A DNA stretch of 38,082 nt, taken from IMG/VR virus record IMGVR_UViG_3300027693_000002; one strand, 5' to 3'. A program made the position numbers and the translations under genes. Under the pieces are notes generated by a model. It saw only the letters and a list, made by a program, of their open reading frames with translations. It searched no databases and was not told where the DNA came from. Each line of letters starts with the position of its first letter. Within the stretch, counting starts at the first letter, position 1. This document shows positions 13,955 through 30,840 of the stretch, piece after piece. Source of the stretch: a virus.

Positions 13955-13963
13955 GGAATTTGG

Positions 13964-17147: not shown

Positions 17148-17150
17148 CAG

Positions 17151-18919: not shown

Positions 18920-18935
18920 GAGGGGGATTTTCTAC

Positions 18936-19169: not shown

Positions 19170-19200
19170 GGTTCTTGGGGGTCGTGCGTAATAGGATGGC
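19166..19200 (+). promoter_or_regulatory. consensus leaderless promoter
   Basis: TTGAGG (19166-19171), 14-nt spacer, GCGTAATA (19186-19193), then ATG at 19201. The stop codon of the previous gene is inside the -35. Confidence 0.65.
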
Positions 19201-19641
19201 ATGGCACGATACCTCATCACCGTAGCGGCAGTTCTCCTAGTCGACCTGAGTGGATGTGCCCCTTTAGAGGACCACTTCCAGGTGACAGGGGACGCTACGG
19301 AGGAAGAGATTGCGATCATGCAGGAGGCCTCGGACGCTTGGTGTGAAGCGACGAGTGGTGCTTGGTGCGCCCAGATGAACCGGGAAGAGGGCGCCAACAA
19401 GATTCGCATCGTGCCGGTAGGGGTATTGCCGGGGAAGGATCACGCCATCTACACCCACCACAAGGGGTTGTATGAGTGGCACGAGATCCGGATTACGGAC
19501 CGTCGGGATAGAGACACGTGGGAGTTTGACTTGTATTACACAGTACTCCACGAGATGGGGCACGCCTACAACCTGCACCATCAGGATGGTACGGTGATGC
19601 AAGTTGGTTATGATCGTACACTGTTCGAAGAGAAGCCATGA
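19201..19641 (+). CDS. putative lipoprotein zinc metallopeptidase (metzincin-like HEMGHAYNLHH)
   Basis: Signal peptide plus lipobox (LVDLSGC). An HExxH motif with a third His is spaced as in metzincins (HExxHxxxxxH, with Asn in place of the usual Gly). Confidence 0.6.
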   Translation: MARYLITVAAVLLVDLSGCAPLEDHFQVTGDATEEEIAIMQEASDAWCEATSGAWCAQMNREEGANKIRIVPVGVLPGKDHAIYTHHKGLYEWHEIRITDRRDRDTWEFDLYYTVLHEMGHAYNLHHQDGTVMQVGYDRTLFEEKP

Positions 19642-19815
19642 AAGAAAAACTGATTCGTTGGTTGGTCGGGACCCCCACTCATGAGACGGGGAGTAAGCGT
19701 ATTAGGACCGTATGCGACGCCATCAAGTGGCGCTTAGGGGGACTCCCCTGGTTGGACGCGTCGGTACGGTACGATGGTTCAGTATCCCTCTACTATTACA
19801 GGTAATCTTTCCCAA

Positions 19816-19850
19816 TTGAGTTCAGGATAGGCTCAAGCGTAATAGACGTG
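19816..19850 (+). promoter_or_regulatory. consensus promoter followed by a 22-nt SD-containing leader
   Basis: TTGAGT at 19816-19821 and GCGTAATA at 19837-19844. There is no ATG at the canonical spot. AGGAGA sits 8 nt before the ATG at 19865. Confidence 0.55.
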
Positions 19851-19864
19851 CAGGAGAAGAAACC

Positions 19865-20563
19865 ATGATACAGTATGTACGTCCAGGGAAGAAACTAACA
19901 CTATACTGCCAGTGTTACAGTTACTTTGGGTCGGGGATTGGGATCGTCCGGTTGACGTTGACCGGCGGGGCCACACGGGGGCCTTCTGTGGAGTCCGGAG
20001 ACAACGGGTTCTGCCGCTGGAAGTCCTGCGAGGTGACCCTGCAGGCAGGGTCTACTGCGCGCGCGGAAGAGTCGTACTATCCCGGTGGGGACAGCGACAT
20101 CACTTACGTCGCGGACCTGGAGAAGTGGCGGGAGAAGAGGCGGGCCCATTTGGCTCGACTGTTTCAAGATCGGAAGATCGAGAGGGCGTACGCCGAGCTT
20201 CATTCGGCTCGTAAGCTGGAGATTGAGACTCGCTTACGAGCTGCGATCCAGGCTGCCATCGAGCTGGAGGGGCAGGCCCGGGCGCGAGCTTCAGGGCGTA
20301 GTGGCGGTCGAGCCCGAAGGGGAGCCGTGGTTCTTCGAGCCCAAGCGGCAGACCAACGTCGACTTGCGGCGGCCCTAGCATCAACCTACTACGTGGAAGT
20401 GCTCGAGTGCTGTAACCGAGCGTGGTCGGTCGACCAAGGGCTAGCGTCCCGAGAGGTTCGATGGGAAGCTCGGAACAGTTTCCGACAAAGCCGAGGCGGG
20501 CTAGCATCCGCCAAAATGCCAGCGGGTTGTGAAGTGGCACTCAAGTGGGCGTTAGCTGAGTAA
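19865..20563 (+). CDS. hypothetical Arg/Ala-rich protein (232 aa)
   Basis: ORF with an SD. Confidence 0.5.
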   Translation: MIQYVRPGKKLTLYCQCYSYFGSGIGIVRLTLTGGATRGPSVESGDNGFCRWKSCEVTLQAGSTARAEESYYPGGDSDITYVADLEKWREKRRAHLARLFQDRKIERAYAELHSARKLEIETRLRAAIQAAIELEGQARARASGRSGGRARRGAVVLRAQAADQRRLAAALASTYYVEVLECCNRAWSVDQGLASREVRWEARNSFRQSRGGLASAKMPAGCEVALKWALAE

Positions 20564-20851
20564 GCCACACACTTTCGAGTTCAAAATTTGGACATTGACT
20601 TAGAACTGGGCTATTCGGGGTGGGTATGGACGAATTCAGTCACAGAATCCGGCAAATAGCCCATCTCGTGCTTCACAAGCAGGACACATCATCTTTTGAC
20701 CCGCTCGAGGTAGAGGCGGCCAAGATCTACCTCAAAGACCAGGGGCCCGAGGAACCCGAGACTGAACGGCCACCAAGCTCTCCAAGTTCTCCAAAGCGCT
20801 CTTAGAGGAACTTGGTCTCGAAGGGGGGGTGGGATTTCCTCGAAAGAGAGG

Positions 20852-20885
20852 TTGAGCCCGGGCTCCCTCGCGCGTAATAGAGAGC
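20852..20885 (+). promoter_or_regulatory. consensus leaderless promoter
   Basis: TTGAGC, 14-nt spacer, GCGTAATA (20872-20879), then ATG at 20886. Confidence 0.6.
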
Positions 20886-21062
20886 ATGTCTACCGAAACC
20901 CGCCTAGAAGTTATGGCTCATGCTGCCCGTTGGGCAAACAACATGCTCAATGAGGTTCAGGCGAATCATGGGGTCCTGTTAGGACCCCATGCGAGACAAG
21001 CTCTGAAAACGGCAGTCCTGGCCCTAGGGGACTTTCTACTACACGTGAGCGTCAACGAATGA
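20886..21062 (+). CDS. hypothetical 58-aa protein (below the 60-aa cutoff of the ORF track)
   Basis: An ATG at the canonical distance from the promoter; translates to MSTETRLEVMAHAARW...VNE. Confidence 0.5.
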   Translation: MSTETRLEVMAHAARWANNMLNEVQANHGVLLGPHARQALKTAVLALGDFLLHVSVNE

Positions 21063-21205
21063 AGCTCAGCGAGAAACAACAAGATCTGTTCGACGAGATC
21101 AAGGATTTGACCTCCAATGGGGGTCGATTATCGATCGACCCCCATGAGGTTCCAACGGCGAAGGTCCTCGTGCTCTCCTTCAAAGAACCGCCCAGCAAAG
21201 GTTGA
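21059..21205 (+). CDS. hypothetical 48-aa protein, coupled by an ATGA overlap
   Basis: Its start overlaps the upstream stop (gaATGAag). Its stop lies within the next -35 box (GGTTGATC). Confidence 0.4.
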   Translation: MKLSEKQQDLFDEIKDLTSNGGRLSIDPHEVPTAKVLVLSFKEPPSKG

Positions 21206-21235
21206 TCTCTTTAGAGCCCAGGCGTAATAGAGTGC
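21202..21235 (+). promoter_or_regulatory. consensus leaderless promoter (TTGATC-N14-GCGTAATA)
   Basis: GCGTAATA at 21222-21229, then ATG at 21236. Confidence 0.6.
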
Positions 21236-21475
21236 ATGAGCAAGAAGCTATCCCCAGCCCAAGCCCGGGTCCTTCAGGAAGTCATCAAGGTTACTGACGA
21301 TGGATATCGAGCTTGGAGTTGTTTCCCGGAATACAAGCCTGCTCTCAAGCTCCTCGAGCTTGAGTATGTGTCCAAAAGTGAGACCTTGGGTAGCTACCGA
21401 ATCACTTTGGTCCCAACCGAGCTAGGTAGATCAGTGGCTTCTAAGTTAGCCACATCTAAATCCTTGACCACTTGA
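21236..21475 (+). CDS. family D small protein (79 aa)
   Basis: Paralogue of 18701. Its last codons run into the 380-nt repeat. Confidence 0.7.
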   Translation: MSKKLSPAQARVLQEVIKVTDDGYRAWSCFPEYKPALKLLELEYVSKSETLGSYRITLVPTELGRSVASKLATSKSLTT

Positions 21476-21897
21476 CCGTCCTGGGGTATCCTCCGGGGGT
21501 CGTAAGTTCTTCTTGCCCAGCGCCCGAATAGGCTTAGCGCCTTCCTTCTGGGGTCAGCCAGGTAAGAAACCTGAGGCCGCCTACTTCGGTGGGTCGTAAC
21601 AGGTGAACCGATAGACACCAGATGTAGATCCTATAGATGTAGATTCTATCCGATGTAGATACCATGCCTCAGCTAGGCCGAACCGGCCCTGCTAGGTCAA
21701 AGTAAGCTGACGATCTCTGTTCCCTGGAATGAGCCAATCCTTCCTCTTAGTAGGTAAACACAGGCTACGAGGGACGCCCGAGTCCGAAGCTAAACCGGCC
21801 CGCAGGAACGAAGTAGGACAAATAGCTCTCATTCTCAGCCTGAATCCCTTTGCTTTAGAGCAATTGTCTGGAAACGGGCTAAAGGTGTATTTGGGGG
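21461..21897. repeat. R2 large intergenic repeat, copy A (~437 nt)
   Basis: It aligns with 27946-28325. The blocks are near-identical (about 130 nt identical: GATACCATGCCTCAGCTAGGCCGAACCGGCCC...GAGTCCGA). Copy A carries an extra insert with 3 tandem copies of a GATGTAGAT-containing ~15-mer (21620-21665). No ORF is conserved between the two copies. Confidence 0.75.
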
Positions 21898-21898
21898 G

Positions 21899-21933
21899 TT
21901 GAGTTCGGGGAAAGCTCGTGCGTAGTAGAGATC
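21899..21933 (+). promoter_or_regulatory. consensus leaderless promoter (GCGTAGTA variant)
   Basis: TTGAGT (21899-21904), 15-nt spacer, GCGTAGTA (21920-21927), then ATG at 21934. It is preceded by GGAAACGGGCTAAAGGTGTATTTGGGGGG. Confidence 0.6.
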
Positions 21934-22569
21934 ATGGCATTGACAATCGGTTACGAGGTTCATTGGGCGGGGGCTAACAGGGCGGATGAGTTGTCGGCGC
22001 TCCGCCATGGTGCAAAGAGGCATGCTACCTATGAAGCCGCTCTGGTAGAGTCCAGAGAGATCACCCCTCCTGAGCCCGATCTGGTGACCATAGTGGTGGA
22101 AGTTCGAACTAAGGTTCAAACCAACTGCTCACAACCCCTACGTGGAGACCCCATGCCGAAGCTCGAAGAACGAATCGAGAAGAAACGAATTCACCTCCGT
22201 ACGCTGGACGAACAGATCGGGGCCCTAATGGCCCTGCGTGCTGATGTAGGAGAGGAGCTTGCGGACCTCTTACTCGAGTCGCGGGTTGGCATTCCGGAGG
22301 TGGTCGAGGGCGGGCAGCCCTTCAGGAGCGACCAGAAGGTGATCTTGGAGAAGCGGGCCCCCGACGGCAAAGCTCGACTTCACCCAAACCAGCCTCCGGT
22401 GGGTGCCATGACCTTTGACGCCCTCTACGCTCTCTACTTCTGGGAGTCGACTCACGACAAGCTCGATGCACTCTTCTTTCGGGAGGGGGCGATCGAAGAG
22501 GAAACTTGGAAGGACCTCCGTGAGTGGCTCGACTCAAAAGGTTGGGTCGTACGGGTTGAGACCTGGTGA
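21934..22569 (+). CDS. hypothetical protein (211 aa)
   Basis: ORF at the promoter. Confidence 0.6.
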   Translation: MALTIGYEVHWAGANRADELSALRHGAKRHATYEAALVESREITPPEPDLVTIVVEVRTKVQTNCSQPLRGDPMPKLEERIEKKRIHLRTLDEQIGALMALRADVGEELADLLLESRVGIPEVVEGGQPFRSDQKVILEKRAPDGKARLHPNQPPVGAMTFDALYALYFWESTHDKLDALFFREGAIEEETWKDLREWLDSKGWVVRVETW

Positions 22570-22575
22570 ATCTGG

Positions 22576-22610
22576 TTGAGTTCGGGGTAGGCTCATGCGT
22601 AATAGGGAGC
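22576..22610 (+). promoter_or_regulatory. consensus leaderless promoter
   Basis: TTGAGT (22576-22581), GCGTAATA (22597-22604), gggagc, then ATG at 22611. Confidence 0.6.
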
Positions 22611-22817
22611 ATGGGCGACTTGACCACAATCTGGATGGTTCGAACGATGGGTTTCGACTTCATTGGGCTGGCTCCAAAGACGGATGAACATCCGGCAATG
22701 CAGTGCCGATTCGTCGAACAGACGAACCAGATCATCTTTGAGGAGTTTCAGGATGGCAACTGGAGTGTGATCCCCCCATGTCTTCGTGGGGATTGGCAGC
22801 TCTTCAAGGTCCGGTAG
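22611..22817 (+). CDS. hypothetical 68-aa protein. The start is reassigned to the promoter-defined ATG.
   Basis: The track ORF 22566..22817 starts inside the promoter, but the canonical geometry points to 22611. Confidence 0.5.
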   Translation: MGDLTTIWMVRTMGFDFIGLAPKTDEHPAMQCRFVEQTNQIIFEEFQDGNWSVIPPCLRGDWQLFKVR

Positions 22818-22831
22818 AACGCGAATGTTAT

Positions 22832-22859
22832 GGGGCGGGCTTAAGGCGTCAGGAGGGAT
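22832..22859 (+). promoter_or_regulatory. family G leader module, copy 1 (GGGGCGGGCTTAAGGCGTCAGGAGGGAT-ATG; SD-containing)
   Basis: A 28-nt block repeated 3 times (also at 23195-23222 and 23540-23567), each ending 0-1 nt before an ATG. It contains AGGAGGG. Confidence 0.6.
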
Positions 22860-23135
22860 ATGGCAAGACTACAATACACGTACAAGTACCCACGGACTTC
22901 CTGGACGGACGTGCGCGAGACCCTCAGCGCTCGAAAGCGACGGTACTGGTACTCGCTCGAGGCCGCGGTTCGAGACATCGAGCGCATGATGCGCCCGGGC
23001 TGCACGAAAGAACCGTTCGTGCAGTTGATCGAGGTTCCTCCAGACGGTCCTATGCGCGTCCTAGCCGAGCGTACCCAAGACGAGTGGCTAGGTACTCTTG
23101 AAGCGGCTGGGTTCATCGCTCGCAGAGTCTCATAA
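22860..23135 (+). CDS. family G small protein (91 aa)
   Basis: MARLQYTYKY...; it shares its leader and its first residues with 23223. Confidence 0.5.
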   Translation: MARLQYTYKYPRTSWTDVRETLSARKRRYWYSLEAAVRDIERMMRPGCTKEPFVQLIEVPPDGPMRVLAERTQDEWLGTLEAAGFIARRVS

Positions 23136-23194
23136 GGTGAACCAACCTACATCGTTCCGCCTCGCTAGATAGTTCCGCCCGAACCCATTCAGTT

Positions 23195-23222
23195 GGGGCG
23201 GGCTTGAGGCGTCAGGAGGGAT
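23195..23222 (+). promoter_or_regulatory. family G leader module, copy 2
   Basis: GGGGCGGGCTTGAGGCGTCAGGAGGGAT, preceded by the hairpin CCGCCC...GGGCGG. Confidence 0.55.
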
Positions 23223-23480
23223 ATGACAAGACTACAATACACGAAGTTATGCGCATGGTTTGCGTTTTGGTATGTCGCATTGACAGCGTTACGGGCACTG
23301 CGCAACAGTGACACACTGATGTGTAAGTGGGCCTCGGTTGCGGCCAGGTGGCATCCGTGCGCCAAATCCGAGCCGGAGCTGCCAGATTATCCAGGTCGAG
23401 GGCCAGGAGGAGAGTCGCTGGTACGAGCGATCCATCTCGACGTTTTGCACGGCACGGACCGTGCATTTTCAAGTATGTGA
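23223..23480 (+). CDS. family G small protein (85 aa); diverged after the N-terminus
   Basis: MTRLQYT... Confidence 0.4.
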   Translation: MTRLQYTKLCAWFAFWYVALTALRALRNSDTLMCKWASVAARWHPCAKSEPELPDYPGRGPGGESLVRAIHLDVLHGTDRAFSSM

Positions 23481-23514
23481 GGAGGAAGTGATGAATATCA
23501 CATGCATACTATAC

Positions 23515-23567
23515 GCCTTAAGCCCGAACCCATTCAGTTGGGGCGGGCTTAAGGCATCAGGAGGGAT
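23515..23567 (+). promoter_or_regulatory. family G leader module, copy 3, with a 12-bp stem hairpin (GCCTTAAGCCCG / CGGGCTTAAGGC)
   Basis: The 3' arm of the hairpin is part of the conserved leader block just upstream of the SD. Confidence 0.55.
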
Positions 23568-23951
23568 ATGCCTACATTCAATTTAGAGGCACTGGAAAGT
23601 CTACCAGCTGGTACTATCCCAGATGGCTGGTACCCTATTAGGCGGGTTGATCTCGACGGCGTGCAACTGGTCGAGACCGATACAGGAGCTTACCGGCTTA
23701 CGGCCGGGGAACACGGGAAGAACCCCCATTTTGGGCGTGTGCAGAATATCCCCGGGCGTGGGCCCGCGTGGATGCGTTTGATTTTCCGCGAATGTGCCTA
23801 TGGCGCGGAGTCGGATTCTGCCCAGCAAGCGATTGCTGAGGCCATAGAGGCCGAGAACGCTGAGAGTCAAGTCCGACCCCCTTCTTCGATTGAGCGCGCA
23901 AACGAACTTCAGGGGGTAAGCGCCAAAGCGGGCCCCTCCAAAACCGGTTGA
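23568..23951 (+). CDS. hypothetical protein (127 aa)
   Basis: ORF that follows a module-type leader. It ends ...AAAACCGGTTGA, inside the next -35 box. Confidence 0.5.
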   Translation: MPTFNLEALESLPAGTIPDGWYPIRRVDLDGVQLVETDTGAYRLTAGEHGKNPHFGRVQNIPGRGPAWMRLIFRECAYGAESDSAQQAIAEAIEAENAESQVRPPSSIERANELQGVSAKAGPSKTG

Positions 23952-23981
23952 GCTTCGTGTTGCCCGCGCGTAATACTGGGC
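23948..23981 (+). promoter_or_regulatory. consensus leaderless promoter
   Basis: TTGAGC (23948-23953), 14-nt spacer, GCGTAATA (23968-23975), then ATG at 23982. Confidence 0.6.
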
Positions 23982-24245
23982 ATGGCACATAGAACTCACC
24001 GCAAGTTGGCAAAGCGACTGATCAGCCCTTGTTGGATGATCCGGACCGGGATTGCTTGCGAGCAGATCTCCCCCGTGTATCCGACCCTTGAGAAGGGATT
24101 CGAGGAGGTGGTCTCCGCCGTTTGCGGGTTTGACCCACTGTCAAGTCCGGACACCATCGAGCTCGTCCGCCACAGTCGGCGGAATCCAAAGCTTCTCGTC
24201 CGGTACTACTGTACGGATGAGGGGAAGATCGTCCAGGTTCAGTAG
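23982..24245 (+). CDS. hypothetical protein (87 aa)
   Basis: ORF at the promoter. Confidence 0.55.
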   Translation: MAHRTHRKLAKRLISPCWMIRTGIACEQISPVYPTLEKGFEEVVSAVCGFDPLSSPDTIELVRHSRRNPKLLVRYYCTDEGKIVQVQ

Positions 24246-24258
24246 GCGCGCTTTCTGG

Positions 24259-24293
24259 TTAATTTCGTCACGGGTTTCCGCGTAATAATGGGC
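24259..24293 (+). promoter_or_regulatory. consensus leaderless promoter (TTAATT -35)
   Basis: GCGTAATA at 24280-24287. The canonical ATG is at 24294; an extra ATG at 24288 directly abuts the box. Confidence 0.55.
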
Positions 24294-24677
24294 ATGTCGA
24301 ACAACGTTCATCTCCTGGATTTTATTCACACTGGGACTCAACAGCAGTTGGTTGCATTCGCCTGCAAGGTAGCTAAGCGAGCCAGCCCCGGGCCTGCTGG
24401 ACTTCATGCGATCGAGATTGCGGAGCGATGGCTCCGGGGTGAAGCTATTTCGAAGGAAGAACTCATCGTCGCGGGAGATGCGGCCTCTGATGCAGACGAT
24501 GACCTGGCAGGCTACGCTACCATCGCGGCGGCCTTTCCAGGAGATGCCGTCGAAGCGGCTTACATAACGGCGATCCACGCTTTGGATGATCTTGACGACC
24601 ACGCTCAGGAGGCTGAGGTGGCTCAACAAGTCCAGGACTTTCTTGATATCTTGGGTGGAAACCCAGCAAAGGAGTGA
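24288..24677 (+). CDS. hypothetical acidic protein (129 aa from 24288, or 127 aa from 24294)
   Basis: First gene of an operon whose downstream genes are SD-led. Confidence 0.6.
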   Translation: MGMSNNVHLLDFIHTGTQQQLVAFACKVAKRASPGPAGLHAIEIAERWLRGEAISKEELIVAGDAASDADDDLAGYATIAAAFPGDAVEAAYITAIHALDDLDDHAQEAEVAQQVQDFLDILGGNPAKE

Positions 24678-25177
24678 ATATGGGAGAGTTTTCGGAACAA
24701 TTGATGTCTGGGGGGCCGGAGCTCTTAGCGCTACCCGCAGATCCGGTTATAGGCGAGGCGTTGACCTCGATGCAGGCCTACCCGGAGGAATGGTGGTGTG
24801 AGCTTCAAGAGCTTCAACCAAAGCTTCGTATGGCGATTCTGGAGACGGCAGTGGCTGGAGATCGGGCTGCCCAGGATGCTGATTGGCTCCTGAGTGATTA
24901 TGATACCTTCAACTATGCGTTGAATACCCGAACGTTTGACGAGGGCTTCTTGCGGTTTGTCATGGGATTGCTCGAGTGTGGGCCGGGTTTACACTTCAGT
25001 GGACCACGGTTCCGGTTAGCTTTCCGACTTGGAGTACTGAACGCGGCTTCCTTCCAGGATAAGCATCGGAAGGACATGGTTATTTGCCGCTCACAGGATG
25101 CTGCCCCTTGGGAAGCTCGACCAATGCAGCTCTTACGGAGGCTGGCCGCCGTAAAGGTAAAGCCCGAACCCAAGTAG
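24674..25177 (+). CDS. hypothetical protein (167 aa), SD-led, with a 4-nt overlap
   Basis: AAGGAG lies 9 nt upstream of the start. Confidence 0.55.
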   Translation: MNMGEFSEQLMSGGPELLALPADPVIGEALTSMQAYPEEWWCELQELQPKLRMAILETAVAGDRAAQDADWLLSDYDTFNYALNTRTFDEGFLRFVMGLLECGPGLHFSGPRFRLAFRLGVLNAASFQDKHRKDMVICRSQDAAPWEARPMQLLRRLAAVKVKPEPK

Positions 25178-25198
25178 AACAGTGGGTGAGGGCGGCCC

Positions 25199-25606
25199 AT
25201 GAAACTCGAGGAAGTGACCGCTGGAAGGCGATTGAAACTGAGCAATCTCGCTCAGTTAGAAGGGGTATACCAAATGCTAGGTAGAAGGGGCATTCCATCT
25301 ATTTCGTTGAAACAATTGGTAGATGATGCGGTTTTTGCACTCTCACGGTTCCAACACGAGAAAGGGACTGTCAGCGAGCTACGTTCCCTGGCAAGTCCGA
25401 ATCACATCATGGACTTGATCTTCTTTGCCAACGCGAAGTCGGTCACTTTTCGTGATCGTGGCGTGGAGTGCGCGGTCGAAGCGGACAAGCGAGACTGTCA
25501 GCTCGCTGCTCTCGCGTTGGTCAAGATAGCCCAGCGAGCTGAACACATTGTGGAGGTCCTTCGAGGAAGGAGAATACCAGATGTGGTACGACATTGTGAA
25601 CGGTAA
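25199..25606 (+). CDS. hypothetical protein (135 aa)
   Basis: ORF in the operon. Confidence 0.5.
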   Translation: MKLEEVTAGRRLKLSNLAQLEGVYQMLGRRGIPSISLKQLVDDAVFALSRFQHEKGTVSELRSLASPNHIMDLIFFANAKSVTFRDRGVECAVEADKRDCQLAALALVKIAQRAEHIVEVLRGRRIPDVVRHCER

Positions 25607-25946
25607 CGGGGACTTTCTCGGACGTGCTAATGGGGATACGCCGGAGGGGGCCGTCGAAGGAGTCCAAAAGTACTGGCCATGTCCCGAAGACCGTTGGCTT
25701 CGAGACCCAAGTAACAAGGAGTCCCAGGACCTTCTCATTCCTGGGGCCAAGAAGGAACAGGAACTGGTCCGAAAGGATGTTTGGGCCTTCTGCAAACCCC
25801 ACATTAAGGGAATGCTGGGTGTGCAGACCAAACCGTTGAATAAGCCCCCGCAATTCTTAGATGGGGAGTACTACTACGAGGTTCTTGGTAAGACCTACTG
25901 CGTCAAGATCGTGCTTGATGCAGTCTTCATCACCCGCATCAAATAG
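25548..25946 (+). CDS. family F protein (132 aa), with its C-terminal 57 aa shared with 25999..26541
   Basis: AAGGAG SD. The C-terminal block KDVWAFC.PHIKGM....KPLNKPPQFLDGEY.YEVLGKTYCVKIVLDAVFITR.K is duplicated. Confidence 0.6.
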   Translation: MWRSFEEGEYQMWYDIVNGNGDFLGRANGDTPEGAVEGVQKYWPCPEDRWLRDPSNKESQDLLIPGAKKEQELVRKDVWAFCKPHIKGMLGVQTKPLNKPPQFLDGEYYYEVLGKTYCVKIVLDAVFITRIK

Positions 25947-25963
25947 AACTGACTCAAAGAGAG

Positions 25964-25998
25964 TTGAGTTCTTGGACCCTCGCGCGTAATAGAGGGGT
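25964..25998 (+). promoter_or_regulatory. consensus leaderless promoter
   Basis: TTGAGT (25964-25969), 14-nt spacer, GCGTAATA (25984-25991), then ATG at 25999. Confidence 0.65.
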
Positions 25999-26541
25999 AT
26001 GCAAGACCAAGACGATATCAAGGAAGAGCTCAAGCACATTGTCTGGGGTCTCGCCATCGAAGGGGCCACGGCTCATCTCCACGAGACCAGCGTTACCTTC
26101 AAGGCCGAGGGGGTGGATTGCTCCATCTATACGGAGGTGCTTGCGATCCCGAACCAAGTGACCAAGGACGCCGAGGGGAATGAATACGTTCCCTTGGAGG
26201 TCAGAGTCACCCTAGTTGAGCCAATTTTTGCTTTAGACACGCCCAAGGAAATCATCGCCCGACTCCAATTCGGGCTCAAGGTTGCCCAGCTCGCGCAGAG
26301 CATTGTTGATCACTTCGCAGGCCGAGACCTTCGGTGCCTCCTCTGTAGCGCAGGTGAGAGGGCCGAGAAGGATGTTTGGGCCTTCTGCACACCCCACATT
26401 AAGGGAATGCGGGTAGACAAGACCAAGCCGTTGAATAAGCCCCCGCAATTCTTAGATGGGGAGTACCACTACGAGGTTCTTGGTAAGACCTACTGCGTCA
26501 AGATCGTGCTTGATGCAGTCTTCATCACGCGCACCAAATAG
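25999..26541 (+). CDS. family F protein (180 aa)
   Basis: Its C-terminal domain is duplicated from the previous gene, and the promoter is duplicated with it (a 40-nt identical upstream block). Confidence 0.65.
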   Translation: MQDQDDIKEELKHIVWGLAIEGATAHLHETSVTFKAEGVDCSIYTEVLAIPNQVTKDAEGNEYVPLEVRVTLVEPIFALDTPKEIIARLQFGLKVAQLAQSIVDHFAGRDLRCLLCSAGERAEKDVWAFCTPHIKGMRVDKTKPLNKPPQFLDGEYHYEVLGKTYCVKIVLDAVFITRTK

Positions 26542-26557
26542 AACGGACCCAAAAAAG

Positions 26558-26591
26558 TTGAGTTCTTGGACCCTCGCGCGTAATAGAGGGC
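26558..26591 (+). promoter_or_regulatory. consensus leaderless promoter
   Basis: Identical to the 25964 promoter over about 35 nt (TTGAGTTCTTGGACCCTCGCGCGTAATAGAGGGC). Confidence 0.65.
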
Positions 26592-26795
26592 ATGAAGACG
26601 GAACTCATGGTTGGCTCAGAACTCGTAAAACGCCGCCGTAGCCTCTCGTACCCTTCTGGAACTGTCAAGGTTCCTGGAACCTTGGTCACGATTGTCGGAT
26701 CGACTCCCAAGTTTTGGGAGTTGAGCGATGACACTCTCGTGTCAAAAACCACTCTCGAAGCAAAAGGTTCGCTATTCACTTACAGTGTGAGCTGA
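26592..26795 (+). CDS. hypothetical protein (67 aa)
   Basis: ORF at the promoter. Confidence 0.5.
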   Translation: MKTELMVGSELVKRRRSLSYPSGTVKVPGTLVTIVGSTPKFWELSDDTLVSKTTLEAKGSLFTYSVS

Positions 26796-26800
26796 TAGCC

Positions 26801-27106
26801 ATGAACCAACGAGATATGCCACCAGGGACCAAGGTGGCTTACACAGGTAAGTTCCTACGTTCGGCGGGCCTCTACACGGGTTCAGCGGGCCTTGACCAGT
26901 TCGTAGTCCAAGAGTGCCACTGCCCTCACTGCAAGGGCAAGACTCGGGTAGCCGTCAACCGGCTCGCTTCTTGGACCGATCCCCATGAGCCTGGGTACGA
27001 CCCCGAGTACGCTCGTGATCTCAAGGCTGAGGTGGGGAACACCTGGCTGCACATAAGTCCGACGGCCCTCTACGTGGTAGGGGAGTTGGACCCAAGGAAC
27101 GTCTGA
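26801..27106 (+). CDS. hypothetical protein with a CHCPHC motif (101 aa)
   Basis: ORF. Confidence 0.45.
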   Translation: MNQRDMPPGTKVAYTGKFLRSAGLYTGSAGLDQFVVQECHCPHCKGKTRVAVNRLASWTDPHEPGYDPEYARDLKAEVGNTWLHISPTALYVVGELDPRNV

Positions 27107-27149
27107 CTTCGTTGGACTGTCTCGCCCCGAGACGGGGTATTAGGTCCCC

Positions 27150-27422
27150 ATGGACCTAAAAAGGTACGAGAGCAAGGTGACGGCCCTTCTAAACCTACTT
27201 AGGGAGCACGAAGTCCTGTCCTCTCAGCTACCAATTGGGTTCTCAGAAGCTTGCTTCGTTGCTGAGGAGTTCGGCCTGGCCTACGCCAGAAAAGACCTCA
27301 CCTTAACGTCAAGGGACAAGGCTATCTGGGTATGGAGGATCACCGACGCTGGTCGCCGTTGGCTCAAAGAGCGAGAGCATCCTGAAGTCCCTCCGACAGA
27401 AGTTCTCCCCACGAAGGATTGA
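27150..27422 (+). CDS. family E small protein (90 aa)
   Basis: Paralogue of 28412..28666 (MDL.KYESK..ALL..LR.H..LS..LP.G..EAC..AEE.GLAYARKD..L.S..KAIW.WRIT..G..WLK.RE.PEVPPT). A GTATTAGG box precedes the ATG. Confidence 0.6.
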   Translation: MDLKRYESKVTALLNLLREHEVLSSQLPIGFSEACFVAEEFGLAYARKDLTLTSRDKAIWVWRITDAGRRWLKEREHPEVPPTEVLPTKD

Positions 27423-27452
27423 GTTTCTGAGCCCTTATGCGTAATACTGGGC
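27419..27452 (+). promoter_or_regulatory. consensus leaderless promoter
   Basis: TTGAGT (27419-27424) overlaps the stop of the previous gene; GCGTAATA (27439-27446); then ATG at 27453. Confidence 0.6.
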
Positions 27453-27671
27453 ATGCCGAATGAAGACCATCAGGTGGTGCTTGGAATCCAAGTAAAGAAG
27501 AACGCAAAGGGGATGCGAGTGGGAGCCTCGAAAGAGGTTTTCCACATGACGATTGGGCTGAGCCAGAAGGCCATGATCCTTCCGGGTCGTCACTTGGTGG
27601 TGCTCGGGACCCGACGTTACCGGGTAGAGGTCGACCAGAACAAGAACCTCAAGATTACTCGTACGGTTTGA
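27453..27671 (+). CDS. hypothetical basic protein (72 aa)
   Basis: A frameshifted remnant of its 5' end, with its own promoter, recurs at 31651. Confidence 0.6.
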   Translation: MPNEDHQVVLGIQVKKNAKGMRVGASKEVFHMTIGLSQKAMILPGRHLVVLGTRRYRVEVDQNKNLKITRTV

Positions 27672-27724
27672 CCTAAGTTCAAGAGATAGGGGGAGTGATC
27701 CACAGACTTGGGTCACTCCCTCGT

Positions 27725-27900
27725 TATCCATGTAAGCAAATACGTGGTTCGTTACTATTGATACGAACAGTGCACTCGCTTACATGTAGTTTTTGCTCAC
27801 GTTCGTTACTATTGATACGAAAGCTAAGGTTGCCTACACGTAAGTATCAAGCACGTTCGAATCTATAGTAATGAACACGATTTTGGTCTACGTGTAGTAT
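27725..27900. repeat. R1 inverted-repeat element, copy 3, plus two extra direct copies of the 19-21-mer GTTCGTTACTATTGATACGAA
   Basis: 19-21-mers at 27748-27768 and 27802-27822 in one orientation, and CGAATCTATAGTAATGAAC at 27858-27875 inverted. Termini are GCCTACACGTAAGT / CTACGTGTAGT. CATGTAAGC...GCTTACATG flanks the first 19-21-mer. Confidence 0.65.
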
Positions 27901-27945
27901 GAGGAGACCACTTGACCGCCCTGAAGGTCAGCCAACAAGTATCTC

Positions 27946-28325
27946 CTCTTGACCACTTGACCGCCCTGAGGTATCCTCCGGGGGTCGTAAGTTCATCTTG
28001 CCCAGCACCCGAACAGGCCCAGAGCCTTCCTTCTGGGGTTAGCGAGGCAGAGTGAACCTCCTACGACACTCATCCTAGATGAAGATACCATGCCTCAGCT
28101 AGGCCGAACCGGCCCTGCTAGGTCAAAGTAAGCTGACGATCTCTGTTCCCTGGAATGAGCCAATCCTTCCTCTTAGTAGGTAAACACAGGCTACGAGGGA
28201 CGCCCGAGTCCGAGTGCTGAAACGACCTAAACGGAACCGAAGTAGGACAAGTAGCTCAAATCTCAGCCTGAATCCCTTTGCTTTCGGAGCAATTGATTGG
28301 AAACGGGCTAAAAGTGCATTTACTT
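27946..28325. repeat. R2 large intergenic repeat, copy B (~380 nt)
   Basis: See copy A. It is preceded by two tandem copies of ACCACTTGACCGCCCTGA(A)GG (27905-27965). Confidence 0.75.
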
Positions 28326-28411
28326 GATTAACTACATCTCCTAGGACTAGCTGGACACCCTCACCCACCCCAGTTAGAATACATCCCAGAACGGGGTGAG
28401 CCGTATTCACG

Positions 28412-28666
28412 ATGGACCTAACCAAGTACGAAAGTAAGATAGCGGCCCTCCTAATCGTACTCAGAGGTCACGACATCCTGTCCCCCAACCTACCTAGCGG
28501 GTCCGCAGAGGCTTGTTCCATCGCCGAAGAGCTCGGCCTGGCCTACGCCAGAAAAGACGTCCACCTGTCATCCAGCATGAAAGCTATCTGGATTTGGAGG
28601 ATCACCGCCTCCGGTTGCCAATGGCTCAAAGATCGGGAGCGTCCTGAAGTACCCCCGACAGATTGA
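28412..28666 (+). CDS. family E small protein (84 aa)
   Basis: Paralogue of 27150. Confidence 0.6.
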   Translation: MDLTKYESKIAALLIVLRGHDILSPNLPSGSAEACSIAEELGLAYARKDVHLSSSMKAIWIWRITASGCQWLKDRERPEVPPTD

Positions 28667-28702
28667 GTTTGGAAACGGGCTAAAGGTGTATTTGGGGGTA
28701 CG

Positions 28703-28900
28703 ATGTCACCGATATCTCGTCAGGAGAAGAGCCTATTGGAGAGGGAGAGTCCTGGGGATCCTGCTGGGGATCTTCGGGAGAGGGACCGGCTCAGGAAGCA
28801 GCATGAGCGGGCACAGGATCCGGACAACATGAGGCTAATCCAAGCGTTACGTGAGTTTCTAGGGCTACAACCGCTACCTGGGATCCCAGAAAGAAAGTGA
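28703..28900 (+). CDS. hypothetical charged protein (65 aa)
   Basis: It is preceded by TTGAGT plus the GGAAACGGGCTAAAGGTGTATTTGGGGG element, but has no GCGTAATA box. Confidence 0.4.
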   Translation: MSPISRQEKSLLERESPGDPAGDLRERDRLRKQHERAQDPDNMRLIQALREFLGLQPLPGIPERK

Positions 28901-28909
28901 AGAACCTGG

Positions 28910-28943
28910 TTGAGGGTCCACCTCCTCGCGCGTAATAATAGGC
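28910..28943 (+). promoter_or_regulatory. consensus promoter with no ORF at the canonical position (ACG replaces ATG); it feeds a long hairpin
   Basis: TTGAGG (28910-28915), 14-nt spacer, GCGTAATA (28930-28937), ataggc, then ACG. Confidence 0.55.
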
Positions 28944-28944
28944 A

Positions 28945-29039
28945 CGAAGGTCAGAAGCTAAACCCCTCCTTGACTAGCTGTAGTGGGGTCCTTGACTAGC
29001 TGTAGTGGTTAGTGGGAGGGGTTTAGTTCCTGACCTTCG
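28945..29039 (+). ncRNA. 95-nt hairpin leader / ncRNA candidate. The ~25-bp stem has a 4-nt internal mismatch. The 45-nt loop holds two tandem copies of CCTTGACTAGCTGTAGTGG.
   Basis: The 5' arm CGAAGGTCAGAAGCTAAACCCCTCC (28945-28969) pairs with GGAGGGGTTTAGTTCCTGACCTTCG (29015-29039). The predicted transcription start of the upstream promoter is at about 28944. Confidence 0.45.
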
Positions 29040-29050
29040 TAGTCGGAACC

Positions 29051-29407
29051 GTGGGAGACATCGAAGTGAAGTTCATCGAGAAAACGACGTTACGGAATTG
29101 CGGCCCCGTTGATCAAGAGGAGGATTCGCCGGTGCACGGATCCCTTCTCGTGGGAGAAGAGTGTGTCGGAACCTACGAAGACCGACGGTCTTCGTGCGGG
29201 TATGACTTCGTTGAGGTTTTCCCCGCGTACCATCGTGGGGCGAAAGCGTGGCTGCTCACGGCTACGTGGTCCCCTGCTCGGGGGTACTCGGCAAGCGGGG
29301 TCCAGGATGCGGTGGTCCCCTTCGAGGAGGGGGTTCGAATTCTGCTCACTCATGGGGCATACGCGCATCTTTGGAAGTCAACTGGATTGGAGTACTTGGT
29401 GAAGTGA
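29051..29407 (+). CDS. hypothetical protein (118 aa), GTG start, 11 nt after the hairpin
   Basis: ORF. Its TGA stop overlaps the GTG start of the next gene (GTGA). Confidence 0.4.
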   Translation: MGDIEVKFIEKTTLRNCGPVDQEEDSPVHGSLLVGEECVGTYEDRRSSCGYDFVEVFPAYHRGAKAWLLTATWSPARGYSASGVQDAVVPFEEGVRILLTHGAYAHLWKSTGLEYLVK

Positions 29408-29802
29408 CCAAGCTCACCAACTCGCAAAAGTCCTTACTGAGATCTATCCAGGCTCTCTCATCTGAGGGTAACAGGTCAGTAGAGGTCTTACCTTCCGAGA
29501 TTACGACAGCCAAGGCCCTCGAGCGAAAGGGGCTCGTCACCCTTCACTCCACCCAGGTAGGGGGCAGGGAGTCCTACGAGGCCACCCTGGTAGTGATCGA
29601 CTCCCGGCGTGAGGTCATTGGGGTCATCGAGGAGTTCATGGTTCAGCTCCAATCCGCCTGCCGAGCCCTCGAAACGGAATCCGACTCAAGTACTCTCTTC
29701 GAGCACATGAGTACCGTTATGAGCCACGGGAGAATCGAATCGCTCCGCATAGCTCTTCGCAATCGGGCCCTCGAGCTCTACGAGGAAAAGAAGGGCTCGT
29801 AG
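29404..29802 (+). CDS. winged-helix-like small protein candidate (133 aa from a GTG start)
   Basis: The frame matches the track ORF 29248..29802, but its N-terminal 52 aa look non-coding (Gly-rich). A GTG at 29404 is coupled to the upstream stop. The stretch KSLLRSIQALSSEGNRSVEVLPSEITTAKALERKGLVTL resembles MarR/wHTH helices. Confidence 0.4.
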   Translation: MTKLTNSQKSLLRSIQALSSEGNRSVEVLPSEITTAKALERKGLVTLHSTQVGGRESYEATLVVIDSRREVIGVIEEFMVQLQSACRALETESDSSTLFEHMSTVMSHGRIESLRIALRNRALELYEEKKGS

Positions 29803-29814
29803 ACCGCTCCCCGG

Positions 29815-29849
29815 TTGAGTTTCACCCGCCCTCAGGCGTAATAAGGTTC
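29815..29849 (+). promoter_or_regulatory. consensus leaderless promoter
   Basis: TTGAGT (29815-29820), 15-nt spacer, GCGTAATA (29836-29843), then ATG at 29850. Confidence 0.6.
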
Positions 29850-30284
29850 ATGTCACTTCAACACTTGTTAGCCGAGGCCCTCTGCGCAACCTTCACCAGC
29901 ATGTGTGGGAAGTGGCAAGCCAAGAAGCCTTCCCCCAAGGCCTTCGTGGTGAGCTTCAAGACCTCCATTAACTCCGACAAGGAAGAGGGTCACCGTTACG
30001 TCGACCTAGCCCTCTACGCTTCCCACAACTACGTCAACGTCTACTCACGAGAGCGCTGGAATACAATCCCACTCGAGGATATGGAGTGGGACGAGGAAGC
30101 CCAAGAGATGATGCCCTCGAAGGGCAAGGGCTATACCAAGGGTGAGACCCCTTGGAAGCTCCTAGTCTCCCATGACACGGGCTGGTCGGAGGCGGTGGAG
30201 GACTTCCTCCAGGCGAACGCCTCCAAGGTGAACGCCTTCGAGGGCAACTTTTACAAGCTCGTGGACGCTACCGAGTTCGAGTGA
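29850..30284 (+). CDS. hypothetical protein (144 aa)
   Basis: ORF at the promoter. Confidence 0.6.
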   Translation: MSLQHLLAEALCATFTSMCGKWQAKKPSPKAFVVSFKTSINSDKEEGHRYVDLALYASHNYVNVYSRERWNTIPLEDMEWDEEAQEMMPSKGKGYTKGETPWKLLVSHDTGWSEAVEDFLQANASKVNAFEGNFYKLVDATEFE

Positions 30285-30285
30285 A

Positions 30286-30380
30286 GGTTGCAAAACCAGT
30301 ACCAGCCAACCCCCTCCGGAGCCACTCCACAGGGGGTTGAAGTGCCCTCCAACCTCCAACCCTGATACTTTGATTGCAGA
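30286..30380 (+). repeat. conserved ~95-nt 3'-UTR element, copy 2
   Basis: See 3328-3420. It starts 2 nt after the stop of 29850..30284, just as copy 1 starts after the stop of 2978..3310. Confidence 0.6.
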
Positions 30381-30673
30381 GAACCTACATGCCAACGCCT
30401 CGCAAGAAGCCCACCAAGAAAGTCCACGAGCTCAACCGGAACCTCTTCATCGAATGGTCCAAGGGGACACTCCTGAAGAGGGATCGGAAGGGACGCTGCC
30501 TGGTATTGGACGGCTCGGACTTCGCTCGTAAGTGTGAGGCAGCCGAGGCCGATCTGGAACTGGGGGCTACGCTCTACCTCACTGACGACGCTGGCAAGCG
30601 GATCACTAAGATCACTTCCGATGGGAAGGGTTACGAGGAAGTTCTGGTGACCCGCTACCGGAAGCTATCCTAG
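30374..30673 (+). CDS. hypothetical basic protein (99 aa)
   Basis: ORF that begins inside the tail of the 95-nt element. Confidence 0.45.
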   Translation: MQRTYMPTPRKKPTKKVHELNRNLFIEWSKGTLLKRDRKGRCLVLDGSDFARKCEAAEADLELGATLYLTDDAGKRITKITSDGKGYEEVLVTRYRKLS

Positions 30674-30840
30674 AGAGACATCCTACGCTGGCACGACGAG
30701 TATCTTACGGCCTCAGGCTCATGGCTCCCTGTCTATAGCAAGGCCTCAGGCTCATGGCATACAGTGGGAAGGCATCCCTACCCCGGAACCGAGTATCGAA
30801 GGCCCCTACCCAAGCGTAAGAACTCCTCTTAAAGCCCACC

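What the first reader, a model, noticed from the sequence alone, without database searches (positions are those of the whole stretch)
21461..28325. Pair of ~380-440-nt non-coding repeats with a 130-nt invariant core; candidate structured RNA or non-autonomous mobile element
The two copies (21461-21897 and 27946-28325) share long identical blocks, separated by segments with clustered substitutions and one indel that carries a 3-copy minisatellite. No reading frame is conserved between copies, so the conservation is at the DNA or RNA level. Both copies start with the same boundary (TCTTGACCACTTGACCG(C/T)CCTG(A/G)GGTATCCTCCGGGGG) right at a gene end. Both end in a GGAAACGGGCTAAA(A/G)GTG element that precedes the next start site. 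Copy B is preceded by a tandem 20-mer duplication, which hints at insertion scars. Part of the core (GTAAGCTGACGATCT) reminded me of a group-I-intron core segment, but I cannot verify that.
Basis: seen in the sequence. Interest (0 to 1): 0.6.

Follow-up and report, generated by a model that had tools for sequence, protein, structure and literature searches.

The report
New structured RNA gene in phages
The two repeats are paralogous copies of a previously undescribed, roughly 0.4-kb non-coding RNA gene with its own promoter and a conserved fold, found only in a group of uncultivated large phages; it is not a mobile element or an intron, and its function is unknown.

Summary
Copy A (21463-21895) and copy B (27948-28322) are homologous, with a 136-nt core that is 98.5-99% identical, and neither strand carries a conserved ORF.

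The window is the early region of an uncultivated phage of at least 102 kb. That region is packed with small genes, each behind its own leaderless-type promoter.

I found nine further distinct homologues of the element in related metagenomic phage contigs.

- All 11 sequences start with a conserved sigma-70-type promoter (TTGACC-17-TAnnnT).
- All 11 share helices kept by compensatory changes. On a 52-pair model, 95% of cells pair, and 14 pairs changed on both sides against 4.2±1.4 in shuffles.
- Invariant G·U pairs fix the plus strand as the RNA strand.
- The 3' end is a hairpin overlapping a leaderless promoter that drives a 65-aa basic protein gene in five relatives.

Rfam gives no match. 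There are no terminal inverted repeats, no target-site duplications, and no interrupted host gene.

Best reading: a new family of phage structured RNA, duplicated here as a promoter-bounded cassette. Whether it acts in trans or as a long leader cannot be settled without transcript data. There is no canonical terminator, and the predicted folding energy is no better than that of shuffled sequence.

The parts
21463..21895 (+). Element copy A: promoter, about 395-nt non-coding RNA region, and 3' hairpin with tail
   Evidence: nhmmer E 4e-128. Homologous to B and to 9 loci from other contigs.
21464..21492 (+). P1 promoter of copy A: TTGACC-17 nt-TATCCT. Predicted transcription start about 21498-21500.
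   Evidence: The pattern occurs only twice in the window (0.21 expected). In all 11 homologues the -35 and TAnnnT hexamers are kept while the spacer varies. The transcription start is inferred.
21512..21567 (+). 5' module, copy A: stem / GAA-C-[AGGC-loop-GCCU]-UCC-UUC / stem
   Evidence: (helices 1-2). The same fold is predicted independently for most of the 13 instances (10 of 13; L014, L025 module 2 and L029 fold partly differently). The inner stem covaries: AGGC/GCCU, AGGA/UCCU, AGCC/GGCU, AGUC/GACU, AGGG/CCCU. The module is duplicated in L025 and L028.
21568..21651 (+). Variable region, copy A: a covarying hairpin (CCGCC/GGUGG), then two extra copies of the GAUGUAGAU motif (three units at 21620-21665 in all)
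   Evidence: Mostly deleted in copy B. L032 has two units and the other homologues one.
21652..21787 (+). Conserved core, copy A. It holds the hairpin GCC-AGC-GGCCG/CGGCC-GCU-GGU and a long-range domain: GAU...UGU(U)CCC...[GCC...(CCU/AGG)...GGC]...GGGACG...GUC
   Evidence: (helices 3-7). Compensatory changes: CCC/GGG to CUC/GAG (L032, L026, L025); GAU/GUC to UAU/GUA (L025); GCC/GGC to GGC/GCC (L027); CCU/AGG to CCC/GGG.
21838..21879 (+). 3' hairpin, copy A: GCCUG-AA-UCC-[variable distal stem]-GGA-AA-CGGGC
   Evidence: (helix 8). The distal stem has at least 5 different sequences among the homologues and forms a distal stem in all 11; in L014/L011/L026 only a weak 3-bp one.
21864..21892 (+). 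Promoter-like tail, copy A: TTGTCT-15 nt-GTGTATTT. It has the same geometry as the phage's leaderless promoters. No gene starts here in copy A.
   Evidence: and the sequence itself. In L014, L011, L026 and L027 an ATG follows 6-7 nt after this tail; in L025 it follows about 13 nt later.
21897..21936 (+). Standard leaderless promoter and ATG (21934) of the next gene, 21934-22569 (211 aa)
   Evidence: (D9).
27906..27924 (+). Partial duplicate of the P1 -35/spacer (GACCACTTGACCGCCCTGA) with no -10 element
27948..28322 (+). Element copy B: promoter, about 340-nt RNA region, and 3' hairpin with tail
   Evidence: nhmmer E 1e-116.
27949..27977 (+). P1 promoter of copy B: TTGACC-17 nt-TATCCT
27997..28052 (+). 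5' module, copy B
28078..28213 (+). Conserved core, copy B
28266..28308 (+). 3' hairpin, copy B
28412..28666 (+). 84-aa gene, a paralogue of 27150-27422, lying between copy B and the 65-aa gene that directly follows the element in relatives
   Evidence: (D3).
28659..28702 (+). Isolated third copy of the 3' tail (GGAAACGGGCTAAAGGTGTATTTGGGGGT), fused to a standard ATTGAGTTT -35 region and serving as the promoter region of gene 28703-28900
   Evidence: (D14, D16).
28703..28900 (+). 65-aa basic protein gene. Its homologues start directly after the element in L014, L011, L026, L027 and L025.
   Evidence: AlphaFold2 model: three helices, pLDDT 70.

Best explanation
Each repeat is a gene for a structured non-coding RNA of a family not described before. 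The family is carried by a clade of uncultivated large phages.

How it most likely works:
- Host RNA polymerase starts at a conserved sigma-70-type promoter that forms the shared 5' boundary (TTGACC-17-TAnnnT).
- It transcribes about 340-400 nt on the + strand.
- The RNA folds into four parts. First, a 5' protein-binding-like module (stem / GAA·UUC / 4-bp hairpin with a UCC bulge). Second, a variable hairpin. Third, a highly conserved core closed by long-range helices. Fourth, a 3' hairpin.
- The last 30-45 nt of the element double as a leaderless promoter for the next gene. In several relatives that gene encodes a 65-aa basic protein.

The element is therefore a cassette bounded by promoters. 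This genome holds two such cassettes. One sits in the position seen in L032 and L010, upstream of the 211-aa gene family. The other sits in the position seen in most relatives, downstream of the conserved 101-aa gene and upstream of the 65-aa gene.

What is shown: homology, non-coding nature, the promoter conservation pattern, covariation, and strand.

What is inferred: that P1 fires; where the RNA ends; and that the RNA acts in trans (as a scaffold or decoy for a conserved protein or nucleic-acid partner early in infection) rather than only as a leader. My split is about 0.85 that it is a functional structured RNA. Given that, I put about 0.55 on trans-acting and 0.3 on cis-acting leader. The confidence given for this explanation (0.75) is for the claim that it is a promoter-driven structured non-coding RNA of a new family, leaving trans versus cis open.
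For: - Eleven distinct homologues come from independent metagenomes. The core is 72-92% identical between phages whose neighbouring proteins are only 40-80% identical.
- It is non-coding. All frames carry stops and there is no 3-periodicity.
- The P1 hexamers are kept while the spacer drifts. P1 occurs only at the two copies in the window. In L028 a canonical terminator sits right upstream of P1. In L031, P1 plus the first 70 nt or so now heads a protein gene.
- Covariation on a 52-pair model: 95.1% of cells pair. 14 pairs changed on both sides against 4.2±1.4 in shuffles (0/500), and 1-6 when the partners are slid.
- Individual compensatory events are listed.
- Folded one sequence at a time, most of the 13 module instances (10 of 13) and most of the 11 3' hairpins give the same architecture; L014, L025 module 2, L029 and the L014/L011/L026 distal stems depart from it.
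- Invariant U·G pairs (336-407, 340-400, 469-506) fit only the + strand.
Against: - The minimum free energy is no better than that of shuffled sequence (z = 0.13 for both copies).
- No canonical intrinsic terminator follows the element. None is seen on the + strand between about 18.1 and 31.4 kb. A discrete RNA would therefore need processing or a non-canonical stop.
- The 3' hairpin-plus-CGGGCTWAAGG junction also occurs in front of three other genes. That part may be a general inter-cassette junction rather than part of the functional RNA.
- There are only 11 related sequences, and the structure was derived partly from them.
- The roughly 50-nt stretch before the 3' hairpin has no consistent fold.
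- There are no transcript data.
Confidence: 0.75

Rival explanations
1. The element is a cis-acting structured leader. The P1 transcript is not a free RNA but the 5' part of a long early transcript. The fold then acts on RNA polymerase (processive antitermination, as with HK022 put or lambda nut) or on expression of the gene that follows, ancestrally the 65-aa basic protein.
For: - No terminator follows the element, and it is always co-oriented with a terminator-free downstream gene array.
- In 5 of 11 loci the 65-aa gene's ATG follows the tail, by 6-7 nt in four loci (L014, L011, L026, L027) and about 13 nt in L025.
- There are two promoter-proximal copies per genome, as with putL/putR.
- The conserved neighbour g26801 gives weak fold hits to KOW domains of NusG/Spt5 (E>=0.05, not significant).
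Against: - The downstream genes differ between loci (65-aa gene, 211-aa family, others), and each has its own promoter.
- No convincing downstream terminator is available to be overridden on the + strand: only one weak terminator-like site (23251-23265) lies between the copies and 31356.
- No alternative terminator/antiterminator or SD-sequestering pairing was found.
- At 340-400 nt with long-range helices, the element is far larger than known put, nut or EAR elements.
Confidence: 0.25
2. The element works at the DNA level: a replication origin, a regulatory region, or a recombination hotspot. On this view the conservation reflects protein-binding sites, and the repeated GATGTAGAT units act as iterons.
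For: - Both ends are promoters, and the 3' tail is a promoter reused elsewhere.
- GATGTAGAT is present in 3, 2 or 1 copies depending on the locus.
- Operator-like palindromes lie just upstream of copy B and of the L028 copy.
Against: - Compensatory changes keep Watson-Crick and G·U pairing across distances of 10-70 nt, which DNA-binding sites do not require.
- G·U pairs make the structure strand-specific.
- The most conserved 136 nt hold no repeats or palindromes.
Confidence: 0.05
3. The element is a MITE-like non-autonomous mobile element, and the nearby 19-nt duplication is an insertion scar.
For: - There are two copies in one genome. Close relative L032 lacks copy B at the syntenic site. 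Contigs L006 and L024 lack the element near the g26801 gene.
- A 19-nt duplicate lies next to copy B.
Against: - No terminal inverted repeats and no target-site duplications.
- The element is never found outside this phage clade or outside this gene neighbourhood. The one genome-contig hit was a chance 21-mer.
- The duplicated 19-mer is the -35/spacer of the promoter, and the other joints also fall in promoters. This fits recombination between repeated promoters.
Confidence: 0.03
4. The element is a group I or group II intron, or an intron-derived ribozyme.
For: The size is compatible.
Against: - No Rfam intron or ribozyme match at E<=10 in four homologues.
- The flanks are separate genes, one with a stop codon and the other with its own promoter. 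No exon continuity exists.
- The element starts with a promoter.
Confidence: 0.01

Closest known systems
GOLLD and ROOL RNAs (large ornate structured RNAs, often in phages or prophages)
   Same: A large (>300 nt) phage-borne non-coding RNA of unknown biochemical function. It has many covarying helices and very conserved unpaired stretches.
   Different: No sequence or structure match to these or any other Rfam family. This element is smaller (0.34-0.4 kb against 0.6-0.8 kb). It is not next to tRNA genes. It carries its own conserved promoter and overlaps the next gene's promoter.
HK022 putL/putR and lambda nutL/nutR (promoter-proximal antitermination RNAs)
   Same: Two paralogous copies per phage genome. 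Each lies directly downstream of a sigma-70-type promoter at the head of co-oriented early genes.
   Different: put and nut elements are about 70 nt or shorter with one or two stem-loops; this element is five times larger. No downstream terminators are evident. The relationship is functional analogy only and is untested.
PeSL cassettes of T4-type phages (early promoter plus stem-loop repeats that mediate shuffling of small genes)
   Same: The region holds about 20 repeated promoters flanking small genes and several paralogous duplications. The recombination joints fall inside promoters. This explains how the RNA gene came to be present twice.
   Different: PeSLs explain the duplication, not the roughly 300-nt conserved structured core between the two promoters. 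This comparison rests on my knowledge of the PeSL literature, not on a test made here.
phi29 pRNA
   Same: A phage-encoded structured RNA transcribed from its own early promoter and acting as RNA.
   Different: No similarity. pRNA is about 120-174 nt and tied to the packaging motor of small podoviruses. Nothing links this element to packaging genes.

Membership tests
Group I intron | Conserved catalytic core (P3-P9, G-binding P7) detectable with Rfam RF00028 | tested here: not met
   cmscan at E<=10 on copies A and B, L028 and L025 gives no intron hit.
Group I intron | Interrupts a gene, with flanking exons that join into one ORF or RNA | tested here: not met
   The upstream ORF has its own stop codon at 21473-21475. 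The downstream gene has its own promoter and ATG. The element begins with a promoter.
MITE / non-autonomous transposon | Terminal inverted repeats | tested here: not met
   The repeat finder on both copies with flanks finds no inverted repeat at the ends.
MITE / non-autonomous transposon | Target-site duplications and insertion in unrelated contexts | tested here: not met
   No flanking direct repeats. All 11 copies lie in the same phage gene neighbourhood. Collection scans found no copy elsewhere.
Any described RNA family (Rfam 15, including GOLLD, ROOL, HEARO, OLE, tmRNA, RNase P, 6S, riboswitches, ribozymes) | Covariance-model score at or near the gathering threshold | tested here: not met
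   No match at gathering score in the window or in 12 related loci. At E<=10 there are only chance-level hits of 12-20 bits to eukaryotic snoRNA, miRNA and lncRNA models. ARAGORN finds no tRNA or tmRNA.
Structured non-coding RNA gene (generic) | Base pairs maintained by compensatory substitutions, above controls | tested here: met
   14 of 52 pairs changed on both sides against 4.2±1.4 in shuffles (0/500) and 1-6 with slid partners. Details. Caveat: 11 related sequences, and the structure was partly derived from them.
Structured non-coding RNA gene (generic) | No protein-coding potential | tested here: met
Structured non-coding RNA gene (generic) | Discrete transcript with defined 5' and 3' ends | not testable with these tools
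   The promoter is predicted and conserved. No canonical terminator follows. No expression data are available.
Riboswitch / gene-specific cis-regulatory leader | Constant association with one downstream gene class, plus an expression platform | tested here: not met
   The element is followed by the 65-aa gene in 5 of 11 loci and by other genes with their own promoters in the rest. No terminator/antiterminator or SD-sequestering alternative was found.
put/nut-type processive antitermination RNA | Short promoter-proximal stem-loop element upstream of terminators that are read through | tested here: inconclusive
   The promoter-proximal position and the two copies are met. Size (340-400 nt) and the lack of downstream terminators do not fit. 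Activity is not testable here.

The most novel reading that the evidence does not exclude
This is a new class of large phage RNA with an activity of its own: a ribozyme, a self-assembling RNA, or the scaffold of a ribonucleoprotein. It would be made early from the only canonical sigma-70 promoter in the region and would help the phage take over the host. One possible route is through the repeated GUARG / GAUGUAGAU / AGCUGA motifs and the duplicated 5' module binding a conserved host or phage factor, in a phage whose own mRNAs are almost all leaderless.
Probability: 0.2. Interest if true: 0.8.

Novelty: new member of a known kind. Interest (0 to 1): 0.6.

Why it matters
- Large structured RNAs with many conserved helices and invariant loops (more than about 300 nt) are rare. 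Where they have been studied, they turned out to be ribozymes, ribonucleoprotein scaffolds or self-assembling particles.
- This one is phage-specific, sits among early host-takeover genes, has a clearly defined promoter, and is more conserved than the surrounding proteins. It is therefore likely to do something important for this phage group.
- It is a concrete candidate for structure probing, cryo-EM and partner pull-downs.
- The locus also shows how a region of promoter-bounded cassettes can duplicate and reshuffle an RNA gene just as it does protein genes.

Tried and rejected
- Rfam at gathering and at E<=10 on the window, four homologues and 12 loci: nothing.
- INPHARED phages by blastn (copies A and L028) and by tblastn of the 101-aa neighbour: no match. 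No cultured relative exists and the host stays unknown.
- Exact-pattern scans:
  - Viral contigs found only L028.
  - Metagenome contigs found only L012.
  - Genome contigs gave one chance 21-mer in a Lachnospiraceae MAG.
- The search for related loci with the 211-aa protein found nothing. With the 101-aa protein it found a 228-kb phage contig that lacks the element.
- A covariance model of the core found no diverged copy in L006, L018-L020, L024 or L031.
- Rejected helices:
  - The local hairpin UUCC/GGAA, superseded by the long-range UGU(U)CCC/GGGACG pairing.
  - AGCU/AGCU closing the 3' region, which is broken without compensation in L027 and L028.
  - A pseudoknot UCCUUC/GAGGGA, with no compensation in L025-L027.
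  - CCUUU/AAAGG at the 3' end, which changes register between sequences.
  - A 5'-leader/GAUGAAGAU pairing seen only in copy B.
- Resemblances I judged coincidental: an anti-Shine-Dalgarno reading of CCUUCC, and a similarity to the 3' end of 16S rRNA in copy A's variable hairpin.
- MAFFT and the small covariance model R1 could not put the variable distal 3' stem in register, so I folded each sequence alone instead.
- The structure prediction of the 65-aa protein was low-confidence. Cluster look-up gave no organism names.

Full report
**1. The observation**

The repeat finder, a pairwise alignment and a profile search all recover two direct copies.
- Copy A is 21463-21895 and copy B is 27948-28322.
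- A 136-nt block (21652-21787 / 28078-28213) is 99% identical. The 5' 100 nt are 90% identical and the 3' part about 80%.
- The large indel in A contains three 15-16-nt units, AGATGTAGATyCTAT (21620-21665).
- Neither strand has a frame shared by the copies.
- Across all homologues every frame carries stops, apart from one frame in one sequence. Variable columns show no three-base periodicity (25/20/19).
- The shared 5' boundary, the shared 3' GGAAACGGGCTAAARGTG element and the 19-nt duplicate 45 nt upstream of copy B are all present.
- The 3' element also occurs a third time on its own at 28667-28695.

**2. Context**

The window is phage DNA. A 654-aa ORF has partial matches to head-decoration and tail-fibre proteins of actinobacterial and other phages. 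A Thg1-like gene is present. There are no tRNAs.

Identical proteins occur on JGI and Logan metagenome contigs of up to 102 kb. Several of those contigs break inside or next to the repeats, as expected for a repeated sequence.

Between 13.4 and 31.6 kb the + strand carries about 20 copies of a motif, TTGAGT-14/15 nt-GCGTAATA-6 nt-ATG. These are promoters placed so that transcripts start at or next to the start codon. The region also holds five other pairs of paralogous segments. It is thus an array of small promoter-bounded gene cassettes.

No convincing + strand terminator lies between about 18.1 and 31.4 kb.

**3. Homologues**

Pattern scans of the public DNA collections gave little. Walking out from neighbouring proteins worked better. 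This produced nine further distinct copies:
- L010:1556-1972
- L014:6212-6638
- L011:8973-9372
- L026:260-660
- L027:119-521
- L025:5323-5769
- L028:5120-5545 (a 98.5-kb IMG/VR contig)
- L029:11289-11707
- L032:119-540

These come; the alignment is A7.

The core is 72-92% identical among them. The neighbouring proteins are 40-80% identical, so the RNA region is the best-conserved feature of the neighbourhood.

Some related contigs have the neighbouring genes but no element within the DNA I hold (L006, L018-20, L024). This holds even with a covariance model of the core.

L031 keeps only the promoter and the first 70 nt or so, now in front of a pentapeptide-repeat gene.

**4. The 5' boundary is a promoter**

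All 11 copies begin with TTGACC (TTGCCC in L025, TTGACT in L027). After 17 nt comes TAnnnT: TATCCT, TAGATT, TACATT, TAGACT, TACACT or TATCAT. Much of the spacer varies.

The consensus scan reports this site at both window copies. The pattern occurs nowhere else in the window (2 found, 0.21 expected).

In L028 a canonical terminator (10-bp GC-rich stem followed by TTTTTTCTT) ends 5-10 nt before the -35 element. The element therefore starts a transcription unit. The transcription start (about 21498 / 27984) is inferred.

**5. The 3' boundary is a hairpin overlapping another promoter**

The tail reads TTGnnT-15 nt-GTGTATTT-6 nt-ATG in L014, L011, L026 and L027. In L025 the ATG lies a little further on. 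This is the same geometry as the standard leaderless promoters. The ATG belongs to a conserved 65-aa basic protein.

In the window that gene is 28703-28900. It is preceded by the isolated third copy of the tail, which is fused to a standard ATTGAGTTT -35 region. Between copy B and this gene lies an 84-aa gene that is a paralogue of 27150-27422. The joints therefore lie inside promoters.

The close relative L032 has copy A's arrangement but lacks copy B, the 84-aa gene and the 65-aa gene at the syntenic place. The two copies therefore reflect cassette gain by recombination between repeated promoters, not transposition. No terminal inverted repeats or target duplications exist.

**6. RNA structure**

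RNAalifold and a column-pair scan suggested helices. I tested a 52-pair model on A7.
- 95.1% of cells form standard pairs.
- 14 pairs have changes on both sides, against 4.2±1.4 in shuffles (0/500) and 1-6 when the partners are slid by 1-3 columns.

The supported elements are:

(a) A 5' module: stem / GAA-C-[4-bp hairpin, loop YYAGN]-UCC-UUC / stem.
- The hairpin stem reads AGGC/GCCU, AGGA/UCCU, AGCC/GGCU, AGUC/GACU or AGGG/CCCU.
- The outer stem changes U-A to C-G, and CCC/GGG to CCU/AGG in L029.
- The module is present twice in L025 and L028.
- Folded one sequence at a time, most of the 13 instances (10 of 13) give this architecture; L014, L025 module 2 and L029 fold partly differently.

(b) A variable hairpin (CCGCC/GGUGG, CCUCC/GGAGG). 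Copy B replaces it with a different, shorter one.

(c) The hairpin GCC-AGC-GGCCG/CGGCC-GCU-GGU.

(d) A long-range domain:
- GAU/GUC, which is UAU/GUA in L025.
- UGU(U)CCC/GGGACG. Here CCC/GGG becomes CUC/GAG in L032, L026 and L025. By hand alignment it reads GGU-CUC/GAG-ACC in L027.
- Inside this domain lies GCC/GGC (GGC/GCC in L027).
- Also inside lies the hairpin CCU/AGG, which alternates with CCC/GGG.

(e) The 3' hairpin GCCUG-AA-UCC-[distal stem]-GGA-RA-CGGGC. The distal stem has at least five unrelated sequences and forms a distal stem in all 11, though only a weak 3-bp one in L014, L011 and L026.

Three invariant U·G pairs and several G·U variants are compatible only with the + strand.

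Caveats:
- There are 11 related sequences, and the structure was partly derived from them.
- The MFE is not better than shuffled sequence (z = 0.13).
- The 50 nt before the 3' hairpin show no consistent fold.
- A hairpin-CGGGCTWAAGG junction also precedes three other genes (22836, 23199, 23544). The 3' hairpin may therefore be a general junction element.

**7. What it is not**

- Rfam 15 gives no match at gathering score in the window or in 12 loci. At E<=10 there are only chance-level hits.
- There is no group I/II intron signature and no interrupted gene.
- It is not a MITE.
- It is not a degraded ORF.
- Cultured phages have nothing similar.

**8. Mechanism**

I conclude that this is a transcribed, structured, non-coding RNA of a new family.

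Whether it is released as a free RNA or stays as the leader of a read-through transcript is open.

For a free RNA:
- Its size, long-range architecture and extreme conservation.
- The different downstream genes, each with its own promoter.

For a leader:
- The absence of a terminator.
- The direct abutment to the 65-aa gene in five relatives.

Three motifs recur in the RNA:
- GUARG, which occurs at about three sites per RNA.
- GAUGUAGAU, present in one to three copies.
- AGCUGA, present twice.

Together with duplication of the 5' module in two lineages, these suggest multivalent binding of a partner. That is inference only.

The conserved 101-aa neighbour gave a confident model (pLDDT 90.6). 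Its only fold matches were non-significant hits to KOW/SH3-like RNA- or polymerase-binding domains. This is a lead, not evidence.

**9. Verdict**

The finding is a new family within the known kind 'large phage-borne structured RNAs of unknown function'. Interest 0.6.

Noticed in passing
window 13386-31651 (+), e.g. 13359-13402, 18660-18703, 21897-21936, 25957-26001: About 20 copies of a promoter motif, TTGAGT-14/15 nt-GCGTAATA-6 nt-ATG. Nearly every small gene in this 18-kb array seems to be transcribed as a leaderless mRNA from its own promoter.
   Followed up: partly
window 13214-13296, 18090-18172, 27729-27898; L028:4900-4990; L032:8690-8880: Operator-like palindromes (GTTCG..CTATnG..CGAAC and CTACACGTAAG..CTACGTGTAG) recur at three places in the window. 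One set lies directly upstream of copy B. The same kind lies upstream of the element in L028. This may be a regulatory switch region.
   Followed up: no
window 13431/17199, 18476/18975, 25773/26368, 27145/28407, 18780/21312: Five further pairs of paralogous segments (73-93% identical) lie in the same array. Small gene cassettes are duplicated often here, apparently by recombination between the repeated promoters.
   Followed up: partly
window 26801-27106 (+): A 101-aa Cys-rich protein that is 65-91% identical across most of this phage clade (47 clusters; the more distant ones 27-57%). The AlphaFold2 model is confident (pLDDT 90.6). Foldseek gives only weak, non-significant matches to KOW/SH3-like barrels (NdhS, Spt5/NusG KOW, L24, OapB). 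It often lies within 1 kb of the RNA element.
   Followed up: partly
window 22836, 23199, 23544 (+): Three copies of a hairpin ending in CGGGCTTAAGG, each followed by AGGAGGGATATG, lie in front of three small genes. They resemble the 3' hairpin and tail of the element, which suggests a shared inter-cassette junction module.
   Followed up: partly
window 5203-5949 (-): A Thg1-like (tRNA-His guanylyltransferase family) gene lies in a phage window that has no tRNA genes.
   Followed up: no
L028:5010-5113: A leaderless-type promoter is followed after about 60 nt by a canonical terminator, with no ORF between them. It sits immediately upstream of the element's promoter and may be a tiny sRNA unit.
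   Followed up: no
L011:8973-9372 versus L026:260-660: The flanks of the element are 98-99% identical between these two contigs, but the core is only 91% identical. This points to recombination inside the RNA gene between lineages.
   Followed up: no
L031 (-) 7139-7063: Only the promoter and the first 70 nt or so of the element survive here. Unrelated sequence and a pentapeptide-repeat gene follow. This looks like a natural truncation that reuses the promoter.
   Followed up: partly
L025:1957-3534: An IS607-like serine recombinase plus a TnpB (Cas12f-like) pair is inserted about 2 kb from the element in one relative. It is unrelated to the element itself.
   Followed up: no
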